A DNA stretch of 64,000 nt from the IMG/VR virus record IMGVR_UViG_3300045051_000531. The stretch is one strand, 5' to 3'. Source of the stretch: a virus. Positions 1,887-6,985 of the stretch are shown here, one piece after another. Under the pieces are notes generated by a model. It saw nothing but the letters and a program-made list of their open reading frames with translations. It searched no databases and was not told where the DNA came from. The stretch's first letter is position 1. Each line of letters opens with the position of its first letter. Position numbers and translations under genes: made by a program.

Positions 1887-2204
1887 GTGGACGTGCCACC
1901 GCTGGCTCCTGCGAGCACCGACAACAACACGGTCATCCTGTGGGTTGTCTTAGTGCTTGTCGCTGCCGTGATCCTCGTTGGCAAGGTGCTCTGGGCCAAG
2001 ATGCAGGAGAACGAGAAGCGGATGCAGGACGAGATCGCCAAGGCCAACGCCAAGGCCGAGGCCGCGAACGCCAAACTGCTCGAAGTCCACGGTGGCACCA
2101 TCATGGAGCAGCAGAAGACTCAGCTCGGGGCCAACGCTGCGATGAACCGCATGGCCGATGTCGCCGAGAAGATGACGGTCATCGTCGAGAAGAGCATGAA
2201 GTGA
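1887..2204 (+). CDS. holin-like single-TM protein with coiled coil
   Basis: TM VILWVVLVLVAAVILVG followed by basic residues and heptad-like MQENEKRMQDEIAKANAKAE. Confidence 0.5.
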   Translation: MDVPPLAPASTDNNTVILWVVLVLVAAVILVGKVLWAKMQENEKRMQDEIAKANAKAEAANAKLLEVHGGTIMEQQKTQLGANAAMNRMADVAEKMTVIVEKSMK

Positions 2205-2789
2205 ATGCCGCTCCTGCTGCCACTGATTCTGCTCGGGCTCCTCGGGTTCACGCTCTGGGGGAACACACAGCCGGCTCCGTCGGAGGACGGCATGACTGTT
2301 GTGAAGCAGAAGGCCAGGTTGCAGTGGGATTCCCAGACCTCGGGTGGGATGGATAAGGCCGATGTCTACACCGAGTTTACGAGCAATAAGTCTGGTGAGC
2401 GTCTTGGCGTTGGGCTCTTTGATGGTGGCCGTGAGCTGCGCATCCGAGACGAGGACGTCGGAAACTGGACCTACGAATCCGCCCGTTACACCTTCCTCTG
2501 GGACACCAGCACCCTCGACATCGGAGCCTGGGTCGCCGCCCGACCCGACGCCGATCCCCCTGCAGACATCGGCATCCGCCTTTCGCCTGTTCGGACCTTA
2601 TATGGGCTCCTCAGCCCCGATCTTCTCGTCGGCTCCCGGTCGGCCGGTGTGGGTGCCAGCATCTACGTCCCGCCGGGGTGGATCCCTCGGAGTTGGGATC
2701 GTTTTGGTCTTGGTCTTGGCTACCTCGTTGATTACGGCGGTGATGGTTCTGGATGGGCGCCGTACGTCTCGCTCTCGACCCGCTTCTAA
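2205..2789 (+). CDS. envelope protein: N-terminal hydrophobic anchor/signal, beta-strand-rich C-terminus ending in Phe (outer-membrane beta-barrel-like)
   Basis: MPLLLPLILLGLLGFTLWG start; alternating strands RFGLGLGYLVDY and WAPYVSLSTRF; C/G-ending codons in mid-gene. Confidence 0.6.
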   Translation: MPLLLPLILLGLLGFTLWGNTQPAPSEDGMTVVKQKARLQWDSQTSGGMDKADVYTEFTSNKSGERLGVGLFDGGRELRIRDEDVGNWTYESARYTFLWDTSTLDIGAWVAARPDADPPADIGIRLSPVRTLYGLLSPDLLVGSRSAGVGASIYVPPGWIPRSWDRFGLGLGYLVDYGGDGSGWAPYVSLSTRF

Positions 2790-2871
2790 CCCCACCCTTC
2801 GACCCCGCGGTACCGATGCCGTGAACGCTGTCGTTGCCTGTATCAAAGCCAAACTCGACTCTAAGGAGTAA
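2362..2871 (+). CDS. overlapping +1-frame lipoprotein with C-terminal TM helix (u-spanin-like architecture)
   Basis: MSTPSLRAISLVSVLALGSLMVAVS-C lipoprotein signal (Cys codon 2437-2439), P/S/T linker, TM LGVGIVLVLVLATSLITAVMVL, basic tail; stop 3 nt before next gene. Confidence 0.6.
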   Translation: MSTPSLRAISLVSVLALGSLMVAVSCASETRTSETGPTNPPVTPSSGTPAPSTSEPGSPPDPTPIPLQTSASAFRLFGPYMGSSAPIFSSAPGRPVWVPASTSRRGGSLGVGIVLVLVLATSLITAVMVLDGRRTSRSRPASNPTLRPRGTDAVNAVVACIKAKLDSKE

Positions 2872-2874
2872 CCC

Positions 2875-3234
2875 ATGGGATTCCTCGCTGACCTCGTCGC
2901 CGCCCGCGCCAAGAGCGCTCAGGAGAAGCTGGAGGCCACGTTGGTCCCCAAGAGCGGCTGGGGCTCCCGGAAGCTCTGGATCTTCGCCGGCATCGCGTTC
3001 TCCCTGGTCTGGCTGGGGCGCGGCAACCTGGTGGTCATCCTCGATGGCCTGATCTACCTCACCGGCGTCTACCTGATCACCCAGGCTGCCCATGACTGCG
3101 TCTCCGACGCCATGACGGCCTGGGTGAAGCGTCAAGAGATCCGGAGCGAGACCGAGCTCGAGATCGCCAAGCTGCAGTACGCCTCGGACACCGATCCGAT
3201 GGGCACGCCTTCCACGACGACAACGAAGCCGTAA
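2875..3234 (+). CDS. holin-like protein, two TM segments
   Basis: GSRKLWIFAGIAFSLVWLG and LVVILDGLIYLTGVYLI; RBS AAGGAG. Confidence 0.6.
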   Translation: MGFLADLVAARAKSAQEKLEATLVPKSGWGSRKLWIFAGIAFSLVWLGRGNLVVILDGLIYLTGVYLITQAAHDCVSDAMTAWVKRQEIRSETELEIAKLQYASDTDPMGTPSTTTTKP

Positions 3235-3258: not shown

Positions 3259-4167
3259 ATGCCAGCTGCTGCAACCCTGGGGCGTGTACTTGGAGCTTCT
3301 GAGCACAGGCGCGGGAAGCGTACCCGTACCGCGGAGAAGCCGGAGGAGGACTCCTCGCTTTGGGACGACGTCTGGCCTGTCCTGGCTACGGTCGGAGCTT
3401 CCGCGTTCCTGACCGCTATTCTGCGGAGCCGTGGTGGCGATAGGCGGACGCAGACGACGACGTCAACGAGTACCGTGGTGCCAGAACAGCCCGAGCTGGA
3501 TGCTGGGATTCGTGATAGTCGGGTTCTCAGTACGTATGATCCGAATTCGAATCCTAAGCGAGCTCCGGCGTTGTTTCAGCGACTCGGTTTCCCAGGTCTG
3601 GCCGTAGACCCCGATAAGCCGGACACCGTTGCCGCGTCGGACGTCGAAAAGGCTATTGGCGGCGACATCGAGGTTGTACCGTCAGCGACTAAGCTTGACG
3701 ATGTGCGGGTCGAACTGCGTAGGCAACGGTGGCCGTGGTGGAGCAGGGACATGGCGAAGCCGCTCATGAGACTGCTTCCAGAAACCCCGCGAACGGTGGC
3801 GTACCATGAAACCGGACACGGTTACGACCCCAATGATAAGAGCCTCAGTAGGGCCGAGGACCGAGCAGATCTCCGGAAGGCGTTGATAGCAGGGGCCCCG
3901 CTTCCGCGCGAGAAGATCGATCAGCTCTTCGAGGGTGAGATCCCGGCGATGGCCATCGAGAACTCGGCAGCCATGGCGTCCGGGTTCCCGAAGCCGAGTG
4001 GCTGGGTCTACGACATGATGCAGAAGCAGATCCCCATCGTCAATGACACCAAGCAGGATGCCAAGGCGATTAAAGCGTTCATGAGTGGGCTGCGGAGCCC
4101 AGATACCGAGTTAGGTCGTCGGTACCTGGACTACCTCAAGGCGCAGGGCGTCCAGCCGGCCCCCTGA
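3259..4167 (+). CDS. putative virion protein with HExxH zinc-metallopeptidase-like motif
   Basis: VAYHETGHG, downstream EGEIPA; N-terminal hydrophobic helix VWPVLATVGASAFLTAIL. Confidence 0.55.
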   Translation: MPAAATLGRVLGASEHRRGKRTRTAEKPEEDSSLWDDVWPVLATVGASAFLTAILRSRGGDRRTQTTTSTSTVVPEQPELDAGIRDSRVLSTYDPNSNPKRAPALFQRLGFPGLAVDPDKPDTVAASDVEKAIGGDIEVVPSATKLDDVRVELRRQRWPWWSRDMAKPLMRLLPETPRTVAYHETGHGYDPNDKSLSRAEDRADLRKALIAGAPLPREKIDQLFEGEIPAMAIENSAAMASGFPKPSGWVYDMMQKQIPIVNDTKQDAKAIKAFMSGLRSPDTELGRRYLDYLKAQGVQPAP

Positions 4168-4219: not shown

Positions 4220-4246
4220 TGCGGTACCCCCTTTATGAGGTCCCAG

Positions 4247-4666
4247 ATGCCTGACTCCCTGATCCGCAAGCTGGCTGGTGTTCGCAAGCTGGCGTTCATG
4301 ACGATCCCAGGCGCCGTCATCGGGGGTGTTGGTGGCGCCATCGATGACGAGGACCGCTCCGAGGGTACCGGGGACAAGTTCATGCGTGGTGCCGCCACTG
4401 GTGGCATCACCGGGCTCGGCGCCGACATCGGGGCCATCGGGGGTGCCCTGGCTGGGATGCATCTCTCCGACGACAAAAACAAGTTGAGGGGTGCCATCAT
4501 CGGTGGCGGTGCCGGGGCTGTGAGCCTGGGCATCCTGGCGTATCTGCTGGCACGTAAGAAGGACAAGTACAAGCAGACCACGTACCTCGACAAGCCAGCG
4601 CGGCCCCTGGCTGCTGGTAGCGCTGCCGATCTCGGGCTCCTCGGGGCCGGACTCGCGGCTTCCTGA
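4247..4666 (+). CDS. glycine-zipper membrane protein, putative internal head protein
   Basis: MPDSLIRKLAGVRKLA leader, three GxxxG helices; start chosen from GAGG RBS (track starts at 4235). Confidence 0.65.
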   Translation: MPDSLIRKLAGVRKLAFMTIPGAVIGGVGGAIDDEDRSEGTGDKFMRGAATGGITGLGADIGAIGGALAGMHLSDDKNKLRGAIIGGGAGAVSLGILAYLLARKKDKYKQTTYLDKPARPLAAGSAADLGLLGAGLAAS

Positions 4667-4673
4667 GATCATT

Positions 4674-5396
4674 ATGCCGCTGAATCAGAAGGCCAAAAAG
4701 GTTCTGGATTCCATGAAGAAGCAGTACGGCGCCGAAGAAGGCGAGCGGGTCTTCTATGCCACGGCAAATAAGCAGGGGCGCAAGGCGGAGACCTGGACCA
4801 AGGAAGCCGCGGCGTGCTGCGGTTCCAAGTTGAAGAAGCGGCTCAAGAAGCGGGCCCAGAGTCCGCAGGAGCACTTCGCTGGGACCGTCGAGGAGCTCGA
4901 GCACACCGACAAGCCGGTGGTCGCGAAGCGGATCGCTGAGGACCACCTCGACGAGGACAGCAACTATTACAAGAAGCTCGACGAAGCCGGACTCTTCGGG
5001 GACAAGGCTTCGGAGACCAAGCAGGCCGCGTACTACGAGGTCGGGGACCCCGAGGATGACGACAAGCCGTCATTGATGTGGAACGTCCTCGGCGGTGCCG
5101 GTCTTGGTGCCGCTGCCGGTGTCGCCGGTGGCGGCGGTTACGGGGCCCTGAGTGGTTACTCCGATTACAAGACGAACACGGCCCCCGTGCTGAGCGCAGC
5201 CAGGAACCTGGCGACAGAAAACAACCTTCCGCCTCCGTACTTCGAGATGATCGATAGGGCGAACCAGGAAGCCGGTGGATCTCCGAGTGGAGCCGCCTGG
5301 AAGGGGTTCTCCGAGAACAGCTGGAAGCCAGGCCTCTGGGGTGCCGGGATCGGTGCCGGGATCGGTGCCCTGCGTTACCTCCTGAGCCGCGGTTAA
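4674..5396 (+). CDS. modular virion protein: DUF5661-like domain plus glycine-zipper helices
   Basis: GTVEELEHTDKPVVAKRIAEDHLDEDSNYYKKL resembles DUF5661; modules separated by KEAA, KRA, KQAA. Confidence 0.6.
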   Translation: MPLNQKAKKVLDSMKKQYGAEEGERVFYATANKQGRKAETWTKEAAACCGSKLKKRLKKRAQSPQEHFAGTVEELEHTDKPVVAKRIAEDHLDEDSNYYKKLDEAGLFGDKASETKQAAYYEVGDPEDDDKPSLMWNVLGGAGLGAAAGVAGGGGYGALSGYSDYKTNTAPVLSAARNLATENNLPPPYFEMIDRANQEAGGSPSGAAWKGFSENSWKPGLWGAGIGAGIGALRYLLSRG

Positions 5397-5407: not shown

Positions 5408-6985
5408 ATGCCACGTCCGCAGTTCATGCAGACCTACCTGAACGCGTGGCGTGCCAACCCGGTTCGCACGCTGCGCGATACCGGGCTGGTGTCTGGTCTC
5501 GGCATGTTCTCGGCGAATCAGGCCTGGAATCTGCTGAGCCCGGAGCGTCGTCGAGCCAACGCTGATATCGTCAGCAAGAACATGTCCAAGGGCGTCATCG
5601 ACGCCTTGGTCCCTCCGGACATGACGCAGAAGCTTCGGGACCAGGTTTCCGGGCTCCCGCAGGGGATCAGGCAAAGCATGGAGGCCGGTATTCAGGGCGG
5701 CTTCCGGGAAGGTACCAGCGACCTGTTTAAGAGCGTTAAGAACAACACCCCGGCATGGTTGGCGGCTGGTTCCGCGGTTCTCGCGGTTCCCACACTGGCG
5801 TACCTGTTGTCGCAGTGGAGTTCAGAGCGGGAGTCCAAACTCGACGCTGACAAGGCGAAGGCCGATGTAGCCAAGCTCAAGCTGCGCCGTAGTCGGGCGC
5901 TGTCGTTGAAGCGGCGGAAGCGCGACATCGAACGTCGCGCACAGGCTCTCATGGCTGAGCGGCTCGGTACGGTCGGGCTTCCTGGCGAAGCTGGACCCGC
6001 CGCGATCGGGTTGCAGCCCAAGCTGGCTGGTTGGCGTAAGCTGGCAGCACAGCAGAAGCAGGCGATTCGATTCTGGCCGCGCCGGCTTGGCGGCGCCCCG
6101 AGCACACCCCCGAAGCCGGTGGTCCCCGCGGAGCCGCGGGCCTTCTCGAACTCGCTGCTCTGGGGTCTCGGTCTCGGCGGTGCCGGGCTTGGTGCCTACA
6201 ACGTCGGTACCGGCATCCACGGTGGCGTCGGTGTCGCCAAGAAGCTGATCTCGGATCCCGAGGCCGCCTCGGACATCGTGAATCAGTACGCCTCGCGGAC
6301 CGCGGATCTGGTGCGCGAGAACCTCCCGTTGTCTGACATCGGGCGCGTGGCTGGTGAGGCTGCATCGACAACGGCCATCGGGCTGCTGAAGTCACCTTGG
6401 ACCTATGCTGGTATCGGAGCCACAGTTGGCGCTCCGTATCTCCTGGCGTACCTGCTTGGTGGTCGGAAGCGCCGGAAGCCGGCGAAGACGGCTGCGTTAC
6501 TTGATTACGCGCCGGCAGCGGCTGCGCTAGCTCCACTGGGGTTGTTGGCGAATCGGCGGATCCGGCACTACGCCAGGAATCACGCCTGGCCAGCACTTGG
6601 AACTGGTATGGCGTACACCACGGCCGGACTCGGGCTGGCCTCTACGGTGGACCCACAGCTGCCAGCTCGGGTCTATTCGAGTGCGGCGGCCAAGGCGTTG
6701 CCGGCTATGTTCAGCTTGAATGGCGCCATGCGGGAGCGGCTCAGCGAGCCGCTGGCGAGCACGATGCAGAGCACGATTGGCGGGCTGCCATACAAGGTGT
6801 TCCAGACCGCCAAGGATAGCTCGAAGCGCCTGTTCGATACCGTCAAGGACTCCTTCGAGAAGCGCCCCGTGTACTCTGGAACGGTGGTCGGGCTCGGAGC
6901 TACAGCACTGGGGACCCTTGGTTACTTGTTGTGGAAACAGACACGTCGACAGGCTGAGGACATCGCGGAGGACAAACCAACGTGA
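5408..6985 (+). CDS. multi-TM putative internal head protein
   Basis: several Gly/Ala helices ending LAYLL/LGYLL; KLAG, RKLAA, KTAA motifs. Confidence 0.65.
   Translation: MPRPQFMQTYLNAWRANPVRTLRDTGLVSGLGMFSANQAWNLLSPERRRANADIVSKNMSKGVIDALVPPDMTQKLRDQVSGLPQGIRQSMEAGIQGGFREGTSDLFKSVKNNTPAWLAAGSAVLAVPTLAYLLSQWSSERESKLDADKAKADVAKLKLRRSRALSLKRRKRDIERRAQALMAERLGTVGLPGEAGPAAIGLQPKLAGWRKLAAQQKQAIRFWPRRLGGAPSTPPKPVVPAEPRAFSNSLLWGLGLGGAGLGAYNVGTGIHGGVGVAKKLISDPEAASDIVNQYASRTADLVRENLPLSDIGRVAGEAASTTAIGLLKSPWTYAGIGATVGAPYLLAYLLGGRKRRKPAKTAALLDYAPAAAALAPLGLLANRRIRHYARNHAWPALGTGMAYTTAGLGLASTVDPQLPARVYSSAAAKALPAMFSLNGAMRERLSEPLASTMQSTIGGLPYKVFQTAKDSSKRLFDTVKDSFEKRPVYSGTVVGLGATALGTLGYLLWKQTRRQAEDIAEDKPT

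What the first reader, a model, noticed from the sequence alone, without database searches (positions are those of the whole stretch)
2205..2871. Dual-coded overlapping envelope genes: TMD/beta-barrel-like protein with a +1-frame lipoprotein/TMD (u-spanin-like) gene
Seen: frame 0 (2205-2789) encodes an N-terminal hydrophobic helix and beta-strands ending in Phe. The +1 frame (2362-2871) encodes a lipoprotein signal (..MVAVS-C), a P/S/T linker, a C-terminal TM helix and a basic tail. Frame-0 codons end in T in 11 of 19 codons (2376-2432) and 14 of 21 (2691-2753), exactly where the +1 frame is hydrophobic, but in only 1 of the 40 codons after 2433. This is the signature of selection on both frames. 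The +1 ORF also fills the apparent gap up to the holin. Established: lambda Rz/Rz1 are overlapped i-/o-spanins, and T1 gp11 is a u-spanin (lipoprotein plus C-terminal TMD). Inference: each product could span both membranes, in opposite orientations, which fits neither known spanin class and implies a diderm host.
Basis: partly seen in the sequence, partly recalled or inferred. Interest (0 to 1): 0.8.

Follow-up and report, generated by a model that had tools for sequence, protein, structure and literature searches.

The report
Hidden spanin-like lipoprotein gene inside another gene
One stretch of a large uncultured phage genome encodes two membrane proteins in two reading frames. The hidden one, never called by gene finders, has the build of a protein that ties a bacterium's inner and outer membranes together, probably to help burst the cell.

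Summary
Frame 0 (2205-2789) belongs to a broad unnamed family (104 cluster representatives). It has an N-terminal membrane helix and an all-beta body ending in a small six-stranded barrel (AF2 pLDDT 93).

The +1 ORF (ATG 2362 to TAA 2871) is open in 13 of 14 homologous loci, whose GC ranges from 31 to 66%. In the AT-rich loci 7-9 stops are expected by chance (P <= 1.5e-4). All 14 keep a signal peptide with a lipobox Cys, a 75-107 aa Ser/Thr/Pro/Gln-rich Cys-poor tether and a C-terminal membrane helix. Frame-0 synonymous sites are chosen to make both hydrophobic segments (p <= 0.004 in each of nine loci). Past the frame-0 stop, substitutions fall on +1 third positions.

The +1 stop sits within -4 to +11 nt of the start of a conserved two-helix, holin-like gene. 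In three loci the two are fused in frame.

This is unimolecular-spanin topology in Rz1-style embedding. No endolysin is nearby, there is no homology to known lysis proteins, and function is untested.

The +1 protein is absent from 5.8 billion predicted proteins. I class it as a new variant of a known kind.

The parts
2205..2789 (+). Frame-0 gene, 194 aa: an N-terminal membrane helix followed by an all-beta periplasmic body. It belongs to a broad unnamed family.
   Evidence: There are 11 homologues at 55-85% identity and 104 cluster representatives by profile search. AF2 gives mean pLDDT 92.9. No Pfam, PHROG, NCBIfam, PADLOC or PDB sequence match was found.
2214..2261 (+). Frame-0 N-terminal hydrophobic helix (residues 4-19), probably a signal anchor.
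   Evidence: AF2 models a helix at 4-19. A hydrophobic N-terminal window is present in 67 of 72 family members. No Ala-x-Ala-type cleavage motif is visible in the family alignment. Cleavage was not tested.
2505..2786 (+). Frame-0 C-terminal small beta-barrel (residues 101-194), six strands, with invariant Gly on one face.
   Evidence: DSSP strands are given. VIA-align's best hit is 9xzt BBn6 (Z 9.3, rmsd 2.7 A, 83 aligned); OMP barrels score about Z 5. BBn6 is a soluble six-stranded design (PMC12478100).
2346..2358 (+). Purine-rich Shine-Dalgarno-like stretch upstream of the +1 start.
   Evidence: A GGGAAGGA or GGAAAGGA motif lies 8 nt upstream of the conserved +1 ATG in most close loci. The window has GGGATGGA followed by AAGG.
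2362..2871 (+). Hidden +1-frame gene, 169 aa plus stop: lipoprotein signal, disordered tether, C-terminal membrane helix and basic tail.
   Evidence: The frame is open in 13 of 14 homologous loci. P(open) is 0.0008-0.03 in four of the nine close loci (53-60% GC) and <=1.5e-4 in the AT-rich loci. Hydrophobic peaks exceed synonymous resampling in all 9 close loci. The protein is absent from the predicted-protein database.
2362..2439 (+). +1 signal peptide with lipobox AVSC; Cys26 is codon 2437-2439.
   Evidence: Cys26 is invariant in alignment A1. A lipobox-like Cys is present in all 14 loci and residue +2 is never Asp. A PROSITE-style lipoprotein rule passes in 9 of 13 loci, against 0-5% by chance.
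2440..2676 (+). +1 periplasmic tether (residues 27-105), rich in Pro, Ser and Thr, predicted disordered.
   Evidence: The window's 78-residue tether (residues 27-104 as delimited) has 22% Pro, 32% Ser+Thr and no Cys. The tether is 75-107 aa in all loci and Cys-free in 13 of 14. AF2 models no secondary structure and pLDDT is mostly below 50.
2677..2751 (+). +1 C-terminal membrane helix (residues 106-130), flanked by RR and DGRR.
   Evidence: The 19-residue Kyte-Doolittle mean is 2.75 against 0.88+/-0.41 in synonymous resampling (p<0.0004). AF2 models a helix at 107-134. The helix is conserved in all loci.
2752..2868 (+). +1 basic cytoplasmic tail. The part at 2790-2868 lies beyond the frame-0 stop and includes an amphipathic helix (residues 150-168).
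   Evidence: Over 15 aligned codons, window against L010 shows 7 codons with only third-position synonymous changes and 3 replaced codons in the +1 frame. AF2 models a helix at 150-168.
2863..2868 (+). AAGGAG Shine-Dalgarno sequence of the downstream gene, which also forms the last two +1 codons (Lys-Glu).
   Evidence: Read directly from the sequence. Junctions in 11 loci are shown.
2875..3234 (+). Conserved two-helix membrane protein of 119 aa (holin-like by topology only). It is translationally coupled to the +1 gene and fused to it in three loci.
   Evidence: It is adjacent in all loci. The +1 stop lies -4 to +11 nt from its start. The two are fused in frame in L011, L012 and L018, each with an internal SD and ATG. 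It has no Pfam, PHROG or NCBIfam match.
1887..2204 (+). Context only: a 105-aa protein with an N-terminal membrane helix and a helical body (i-spanin-like shape).
   Evidence: Sequence. It is conserved only in L001 and its duplicate loci. Family hits are weak and non-specific.

Best explanation
Window 2205-2871 carries two real genes on one strand in two frames.

Frame 0 encodes a protein anchored by an N-terminal membrane helix, with an all-beta periplasmic body ending in a small six-stranded barrel. The +1 frame starts at its own ATG (2362), behind a purine-rich Shine-Dalgarno-like stretch. It encodes a 169-aa protein with a lipoprotein signal (Cys26), an ~80-residue disordered Pro/Ser/Thr tether, a C-terminal membrane helix and a basic tail. 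Its stop lies 3 nt before the start of a conserved two-helix membrane protein (2875-3234).

Shown: dual coding; conservation of each +1 feature from 31 to 66% GC; translational coupling or in-frame fusion with the downstream gene.

Inferred: Cys26 is lipidated and sorted to the outer membrane while the C-terminal helix stays in the inner membrane, so the +1 protein bridges the periplasm as a unimolecular spanin does. The three genes then form a lysis module of a diderm host. The two-helix protein would act as the holin or an inner-membrane partner. The +1 tether would pull or fuse the two membranes once the wall is cut. Frame 0 would be an inner-membrane-anchored periplasmic partner, holding the position that Rz holds relative to Rz1.

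The confidence given (0.5) is for the whole statement including the lysis role; the dual coding alone I put at about 0.95.
For: - Openness: the +1 frame is open in 13 of 14 loci, while the +2 frame is full of stops.
- Chance of openness, given the frame-0 protein and background codon usage: P=0.0008 (L004, L010), 0.012 (L007), 0.029 (L006); 1.5e-4 (L011) and 0 of 20000 (L012, L018).
- Hydrophobicity: both +1 hydrophobic segments exceed synonymous resampling in all nine close loci, p<=0.004. T3 is enriched exactly there.
- Tail beyond the frame-0 stop: 7 synonymous against 3 replaced codons in the +1 frame.
- Start signals: conserved ATG and SD.
- Lipoprotein features: lipobox Cys in all loci, +2 never Asp, tether Cys-free in 13 of 14 loci (L007 has one Cys), as in the 58 u-spanins of PMC6139136.
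- Coupling: the +1 stop lies -4 to +11 nt from the downstream start in 11 loci, with ATGA overlaps in three, whereas the frame-0 stop is 9-105 nt away. Three loci are fused in frame.
- Precedent: embedding of a lipoprotein gene in the +1 frame of a gene for a type-II membrane protein is the lambda Rz/Rz1 architecture. The order spanin pair then holin also occurs in the phiKZ lysis cassette (PMC12894885).
Against: - Homology: none of the three proteins matches any spanin, holin or other named family.
- Context: no endolysin is recognisable in the 64-kb window or beside the module in other loci. Only frame 0 and the two-helix gene are syntenic.
- Frame 0 is all-beta, not the coiled coil typical of i-spanins.
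- The tether is disordered, unlike the beta-rich T1 gp11 (PMC6139136).
- The lipobox is non-canonical in the window (AVSC), and position -1 is Asn or Thr in two loci.
- Synonymous divergence of frame 0 in the overlap (0.43) is lower than in its non-overlapped start (0.57) but no lower than in the neighbouring gene.
- Host and expression are unknown.
Confidence: 0.5

Rival explanations
1. The pair is real, but the module is not for lysis. It would be an envelope module with another role: superinfection exclusion, receptor masking, or tethering or remodelling the envelope during infection. Phage lipoproteins such as T5 Llp or Cor, and small inner-membrane proteins such as T4 Imm, work this way (from general knowledge).
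For: No endolysin is next to the module in any locus. Its neighbours vary (methyltransferases, helicase, patatin, tail-fibre-like genes), as expected of a mobile accessory cassette. There is no homology to lysis proteins. Frame 0 has an unprecedented all-beta build for an i-spanin.
Against: To my knowledge, no exclusion lipoprotein has a C-terminal membrane helix or is embedded in another gene. The +1 embedding together with a holin-like neighbour is the spanin hallmark (PMC6139136). There is no match to defence models.
Confidence: 0.27
2. A two-component reading. Frame 0 is the i-spanin and the +1 lipoprotein is its o-spanin, and they bind each other in the periplasm as Rz and Rz1 do. The +1 membrane helix would be an accessory feature rather than the means of spanning the envelope alone.
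For: The gene architecture matches embedded Rz/Rz1: an N-terminal helix protein with a Pro-rich lipoprotein embedded in its +1 frame. Frame 0 is more strongly conserved than +1, at 58-86% against 38-83% identity, so it is needed. L019 has a stop before the +1 helix.
Against: The +1 helix is selected in every locus and kept in AT-rich relatives. The +1 tether has no periplasmic Cys for disulfide-linked dimers in 13 of 14 loci. Frame 0 has no coiled coil. The L019 contig has only 2x coverage.
Confidence: 0.2
3. The +1 ORF is not translated. Its openness and features would be by-products of a conserved frame-0 protein in GC-rich DNA.
For: In the window and its two closest relatives, openness is not unusual (P=0.25-0.37). 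It is not significant under the gene's own codon usage (0.11-0.52). Long alternative ORFs are common in this window.
Against: The frame is open in 31-37% GC relatives where 7-9 stops are expected. The hydrophobic segments depend on frame-0 synonymous choices. The ATG, SD and Cys are conserved. Synonymous-only changes occur beyond the frame-0 stop. The +1 ORF tracks an 85-105 nt insertion so that it still ends at the next gene's start.
Confidence: 0.03
4. One reading: frame 0 is an outer-membrane beta-barrel that, through its N-terminal helix, also spans both membranes in the orientation opposite to +1.
For: The strands alternate hydrophobic residues with Gly or polar residues, and the window protein ends in Phe. 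There are weak structural matches to OmpA, OprF and PagL barrels (Z 4.5-5.1).
Against: The model has six strands, fewer than the eight of the smallest usual monomeric OMPs (general knowledge). The best match, Z 9.3, is a soluble six-stranded design. Terminal Phe occurs in only 32 of 72 members. The compact 80-residue N-domain is too short to bridge a periplasm.
Confidence: 0.05

Closest known systems
Unimolecular spanins (T1 gp11 type; 58 proteins in 13 families, Kongari et al. 2018, PMC6139136)
   Same: Outer-membrane lipoprotein signal plus a C-terminal membrane helix in one small protein. The periplasmic part is about 80-100 residues and Cys-free in 13 of 14 loci. It lies beside a holin-like gene.
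   Different: No sequence similarity. The periplasmic part is predicted disordered and Ser/Thr/Pro-rich, not beta-rich. The gene is almost wholly embedded in another conserved gene. It is fused in frame to the downstream two-helix protein in three loci. No endolysin is nearby and function is untested.
Embedded two-component spanins (lambda Rz/Rz1, T7 18.5/18.7)
   Same: A Pro-rich lipoprotein gene in the +1 frame, inside a gene for a protein with an N-terminal membrane helix and a periplasmic body.
   Different: The outer gene product is all-beta with a six-stranded barrel instead of a coiled coil. The inner product is longer, carries its own membrane helix and lacks the periplasmic Cys used for dimer disulfides in 13 of 14 loci. 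The +1 ORF runs past the outer gene's stop (more overlapped than strictly embedded in the window).
phiKZ lysis cassette (gp141/gp141.1 spanins, gp142 holin; PMC12894885)
   Same: A jumbo phage with an overlapping spanin-type pair directly followed by a small membrane protein. The o-spanin there was also missed by annotation.
   Different: phiKZ has a helical i-spanin, an o-spanin without a membrane helix, a one-helix class III holin and an adjacent endolysin. All were tested experimentally.
Class I and class II holins (lambda S105, S21)
   Same: The 119-aa neighbour has two membrane helices and a charged C-terminus. The fused forms would have three helices with N-out, C-in topology.
   Different: No family match. 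A holin with a lipid-anchored periplasmic extension of about 100 residues is, to my knowledge, not described.

Membership tests
Unimolecular spanin (topology-defined class, PMC6139136) | N-terminal outer-membrane lipoprotein signal (lipobox Cys, no inner-membrane retention signal) | tested here: met
   The test was pattern-based only. A Cys preceded by a hydrophobic helix is present in all 14 loci, residue +2 is never Asp, and a PROSITE-style rule passes in 9 of 13. SignalP and LipoP were not available.
Unimolecular spanin (topology-defined class, PMC6139136) | C-terminal transmembrane domain | tested here: met
   Hydropathy peaks of 2.3-2.75 occur in all loci, p<=0.004 against resampling. AF2 models a helix at 107-134.
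Unimolecular spanin (topology-defined class, PMC6139136) | Gene lies in a lysis cassette with holin and endolysin | tested here: inconclusive
   A holin-like two-helix gene is always adjacent. No endolysin family was found in the window or the neighbouring genes.
Unimolecular spanin (topology-defined class, PMC6139136) | Disrupts the outer membrane (complements a lambda Rz/Rz1 defect) | not testable with these tools
   This needs an experiment.
T1 gp11 u-spanin family | Sequence similarity and a beta-rich periplasmic domain | tested here: not met
   No PHROG, Pfam or NCBIfam hit. The tether is modelled without secondary structure.
Embedded two-component spanin (Rz/Rz1) | Lipoprotein gene in the +1 frame within the gene of a protein with an N-terminal membrane helix | tested here: met
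Embedded two-component spanin (Rz/Rz1) | i-spanin periplasmic domain is alpha-helical coiled coil | tested here: not met
   The AF2 model (pLDDT 93) has 13 strands after the membrane helix and only one six-residue helix (82-87); there is no coiled coil.
Embedded two-component spanin (Rz/Rz1) | o-spanin is a short lipoprotein without a membrane helix and with periplasmic Cys | tested here: not met
   A C-terminal helix is present in all loci, and 13 of 14 have no periplasmic Cys.
Holin (for 2875-3234) | Small protein with at least one membrane helix and a charged C-terminal tail | tested here: met
   Two hydrophobic segments and a charged C-terminus are conserved in 11 loci.
Holin (for 2875-3234) | Membership of a described holin family, or hole-forming activity | tested here: inconclusive
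   No Pfam, PHROG or NCBIfam holin match. The nearest atlas clusters are unnamed viral proteins. Activity cannot be tested here.
Eight-stranded outer-membrane barrel (OmpA/OmpX/Lom type, for frame 0) | Closed membrane barrel of at least 8 strands with a conserved C-terminal aromatic signal | tested here: inconclusive
   The model has six strands. OMP barrels reach Z 4.5-5.1, against 9.3 for a soluble six-stranded design. Terminal Phe occurs in 32 of 72 members.

The most novel reading that the evidence does not exclude
A new class of lysis device. A disordered, lipid-anchored tether with its own membrane helix (an 'embedded u-spanin') is overprinted on a new beta-barrel periplasmic protein. 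It is translationally coupled, and in some phages covalently fused, to the holin. Hole formation and outer-membrane disruption would then be physically linked in one complex. This would also be the first living example of the proposed o-spanin to u-spanin transition by C-terminal extension.
Probability: 0.3. Interest if true: 0.85.

Novelty: new variant of a known kind. Interest (0 to 1): 0.7.

Why it matters
Overlapping genes are routinely missed. This one is absent from a database of 5.8 billion predicted proteins, yet it is kept across phages whose GC content runs from 31% to 66%.

If it acts in lysis, it widens the spanin concept in three ways: a u-spanin-type protein nested inside another gene, a disordered rather than folded periplasmic part, and natural spanin-holin fusions. 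It would also give a concrete candidate for the evolutionary link between o-spanins and u-spanins, which Kongari et al. 2018 called speculative.

It also names a three-gene module that could explain how some 'spanin-less' uncultured large phages open the outer membrane. The idea is directly testable in the standard lambda complementation system.

Tried and rejected
- **Codon permutation:** permuting synonymous codons within the gene's own codon usage gave no significant openness (0.11-0.52). I judged this test too conservative, because the gene's own usage is itself shaped by the overlap.
- **Synonymous divergence:** the overlap (0.43) is below the non-overlapped start (0.57) but equal to the neighbouring gene (0.43), so it is not discriminating.
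- **Complex prediction:** frame-0 residues 22-194 with +1 residues 26-108 gave no verdict (score 0.00, controls not run).
- **Structure searches of the frame-0 model:** Foldseek against PDB and viral models gave no informative match. The atlas shape search was weak. PDB sequence searches found nothing.
- **Searches for relatives:** DNA and tblastn against 50,697 cultured phage records found no match. IMG/VR scans with four queries found no relatives.
- **Whole genome:** none is held for this window.
- **Sequencing runs:** no RNA holder is listed. The full-length holders are rhizosphere metagenomes that may be the source sample.
- **Defence models:** no hit.
- **Earlier scan notes:** no look-alike found by sequence.
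- **NCBIfam P2_Rz1 hit:** the L018 +1 signal peptide scored E=0.013, below cut-off. It covers only the lipobox region, so I did not use it as evidence of family membership.
- **Frameshift idea:** I considered that the +1 frame is reached by ribosomal frameshifting from frame 0. I rejected this because the +1 frame has its own conserved ATG, SD and signal peptide.

Full report
**Setting.** The window is 64% GC with nearly all long genes on the + strand. It carries phage genes: a head maturation protease, a tail-fibre-like protein and a sigma factor. It has no DNA match among cultured phages. The frame-0 protein occurs on a contig of up to 191 kb, and earlier scan notes describe multisubunit RNA polymerase genes. 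It is therefore a large uncultured phage. Full-length holders are rhizosphere metagenomes.

**Observation.** Against a background T3 of 0.148 the two enrichments have binomial P of 1.7e-5 and 9.8e-8. Because frame-0 third positions are +1 second positions, T there gives hydrophobic +1 residues and C gives Ser, Pro, Thr or Ala. Openness alone is weak evidence in this GC-rich window (P 0.25-0.52), where long alternative ORFs are common.

**Frame 0 is a real gene.**
- It has 11 metagenomic homologues at 55-85% identity.
- A profile search of 1.84 billion representatives finds 104 clusters; nearly all are 180-234 aa, with a few shorter hits.
- The 72-sequence alignment shows an N-terminal hydrophobic helix in 67 of 72 members and a conserved Gly-rich C-terminal domain.
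- AlphaFold2 gives pLDDT 92.9: a helix at 4-19 followed by 13 strands.
- Residues 100-194 best match a designed soluble six-stranded barrel (9xzt, Z 9.3, rmsd 2.7 A over 83 residues). Eight-stranded outer-membrane barrels reach only Z about 5 (design described in PMC12478100).
- No family library or PDB sequence search names it.

**The +1 frame is also a real gene.** I fetched DNA for homologous loci.
1. The +1 frame is open from a conserved ATG to a stop at or beyond the frame-0 stop in 13 of 14 loci, while +2 is full of stops. The exception, L019, is a contig with 2x coverage.
2. I resampled frame-0 synonymous codons from each locus's background usage. P(open) is 0.0008 in L004 and L010, 0.012 in L007 and 0.029 in L006. 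In distant relatives at 31-37% GC, where 7-9 stops are expected, it is 1.5e-4 (L011) and 0 in 20000 (L012, L018).
3. The same resampling shows that both +1 hydrophobic segments lie far above expectation in each of nine loci (p<=0.004, mostly <0.0004).
4. The ATG is conserved and preceded by GGGAAGGA-like purines 8 nt upstream. Cys26 is invariant.
5. The window and L010 share an 85-105 nt insertion after the frame-0 stop. The +1 ORF reads through it. In 15 aligned codons there, 7 differ only at the +1 third position and 3 are replaced.
6. The +1 stop lies -4 to +11 nt from the next gene's start in all 11 unfused loci, with ATGA overlaps in three. The frame-0 stop is 9-105 nt away.

One test was not discriminating: frame-0 synonymous divergence is 0.43 in the overlap, 0.57 in the non-overlapped start and 0.43 in the neighbouring gene.

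**Anatomy of the +1 product.**
- It begins with a basic n-region and a hydrophobic helix.
- A lipobox-like tetrad follows: AVSC in the window, and LVGC, LAGC, IISC, GASC and others elsewhere.
- Residue +2 is never Asp.
- The tether is 75-107 residues, rich in Ser, Thr, Pro or Gln. It has no Cys in 13 of 14 loci and is modelled as disordered.
- A 20-25 residue hydrophobic helix follows, with basic residues beside it in most loci, and then a tail that is basic in the window and most close loci.
- A PROSITE-style lipoprotein rule passes in 9 of 13 loci. The failures are a late Arg in two loci, and Asn or Thr at position -1 in two others.
- Neither this protein nor the fused form exists among 5.8 billion predicted proteins, so gene callers have never reported it.

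**The neighbour.** The 119-aa gene at 2875-3234 has two membrane helices and a charged C-terminus. Its homologue lies directly downstream in every locus that extends far enough, although L013's copy is only weakly similar. Apart from the upstream gene 1887-2204, shared only with the closest relative L001, it is the only other conserved neighbour. In L011, L018 and L012 (two lineages) the +1 ORF continues without a stop into this gene, giving a 271-284 aa lipoprotein with three helices. An internal SD and ATG for the short form are retained. The topologies are compatible: the +1 tail and the neighbour's N-terminus are both cytoplasmic. No holin family matches it.

**Interpretation.** A lipoprotein signal plus a C-terminal membrane helix is the operational definition of a unimolecular spanin. 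The 58 known u-spanins likewise lack periplasmic Cys (PMC6139136). A lipoprotein gene in the +1 frame of a gene for an N-terminally anchored protein is the Rz/Rz1 architecture. The order spanin pair then holin occurs in phiKZ (PMC12894885). I therefore read the three genes as a lysis module of a diderm host, with the +1 protein bridging the two membranes. Kongari et al. speculated that u-spanins arose from o-spanins by C-terminal extension that gained a helix. This locus fits that picture.

The lysis reading remains an inference for these reasons:
- No endolysin is recognisable in the window or beside the module elsewhere.
- The neighbouring genes vary.
- Frame 0 is all-beta rather than coiled coil.
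- The tether is disordered rather than beta-rich.
- Nothing is homologous to known lysis proteins.

A non-lysis envelope role, such as superinfection exclusion, stays a serious rival.

The barrel has six strands and looks like a soluble design, and the terminal Phe is not conserved (32 of 72 members). The diderm host is plausible. The only lead is L014, a 79%-identical copy on a 106-kb contig binned with a Thermoanaerobaculaceae (Acidobacteriota) MAG.

**Verdict.** The dual coding is real (about 0.95). The u-spanin-like topology is well supported by sequence. A lysis function is the best but unproven reading (about 0.5). I class this as a new variant of a known kind: an embedded u-spanin-type gene, coupled or fused to a holin-like gene, overprinted on a new protein family.

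Noticed in passing
window 1887-2204: A 105-aa protein with an N-terminal membrane helix and an Ala/Lys/Glu-rich helical body, which is the classic i-spanin shape, lies directly upstream. It is conserved only in the closest relative (L001 1244-1561, 64% identity). It could be a separate i-spanin, or a holin or antiholin partner.
   Followed up: partly
window 3259-4167: A 302-aa protein directly after the two-helix gene has a hydrophobic helix near residue 40-55 and an HETGH (HExxH-type) motif. It may be a membrane-tethered metallopeptidase and so a candidate wall-cutting enzyme. It has no Pfam, PHROG, NCBIfam or PDB match and is not conserved in the other loci.
   Followed up: partly
L012 1392-2276: In one AT-rich relative, a patatin-like phospholipase (PF01734, E=5e-27) directly follows the module. 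A lipid-cleaving enzyme next to envelope proteins would fit membrane disruption.
   Followed up: no
L019 439-1053: This relative has a stop codon in the +1 frame between the tether and the membrane helix. If real, it would give an o-spanin-like lipoprotein without a helix. The contig has 2x coverage, so this may be a sequencing error.
   Followed up: no
L010 367-, L006 4158-, L004 4167-: Several +1 signal peptides carry a second Cys seven residues (six in L006) upstream of the invariant one. It sits in a more canonical lipobox (LALGC, LVLAC, LALAC), so the lipidated residue may differ between lineages. The window has Ser at that position.
   Followed up: partly
L014 (contig DAONEV010000001.1, 106 kb): A 79%-identical copy of the module sits on a contig binned into a Thermoanaerobaculaceae (Acidobacteriota) MAG. 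It is probably a phage contig co-binned with its host, and it is the only host lead.
   Followed up: no
window 4235-4666, 4674-5396, 5408-6985: A run of proteins carries glycine-zipper or repeated hydrophobic C-terminal segments (weak PF05433 in 4235-4666; DUF5661 in 4674-5396; DUF883_C in one window protein, not located). Together with the module, this region of the genome is rich in membrane proteins.
   Followed up: no
L006 2949-3935, L009 20-691, L013 3-161: The gene upstream of the module in three loci ends in a shared motif (Y-Q/K-K/R-T-K-S-S/N-x-E-I/L-P/Q). It is a second, partly syntenic neighbour of unknown function.
   Followed up: no
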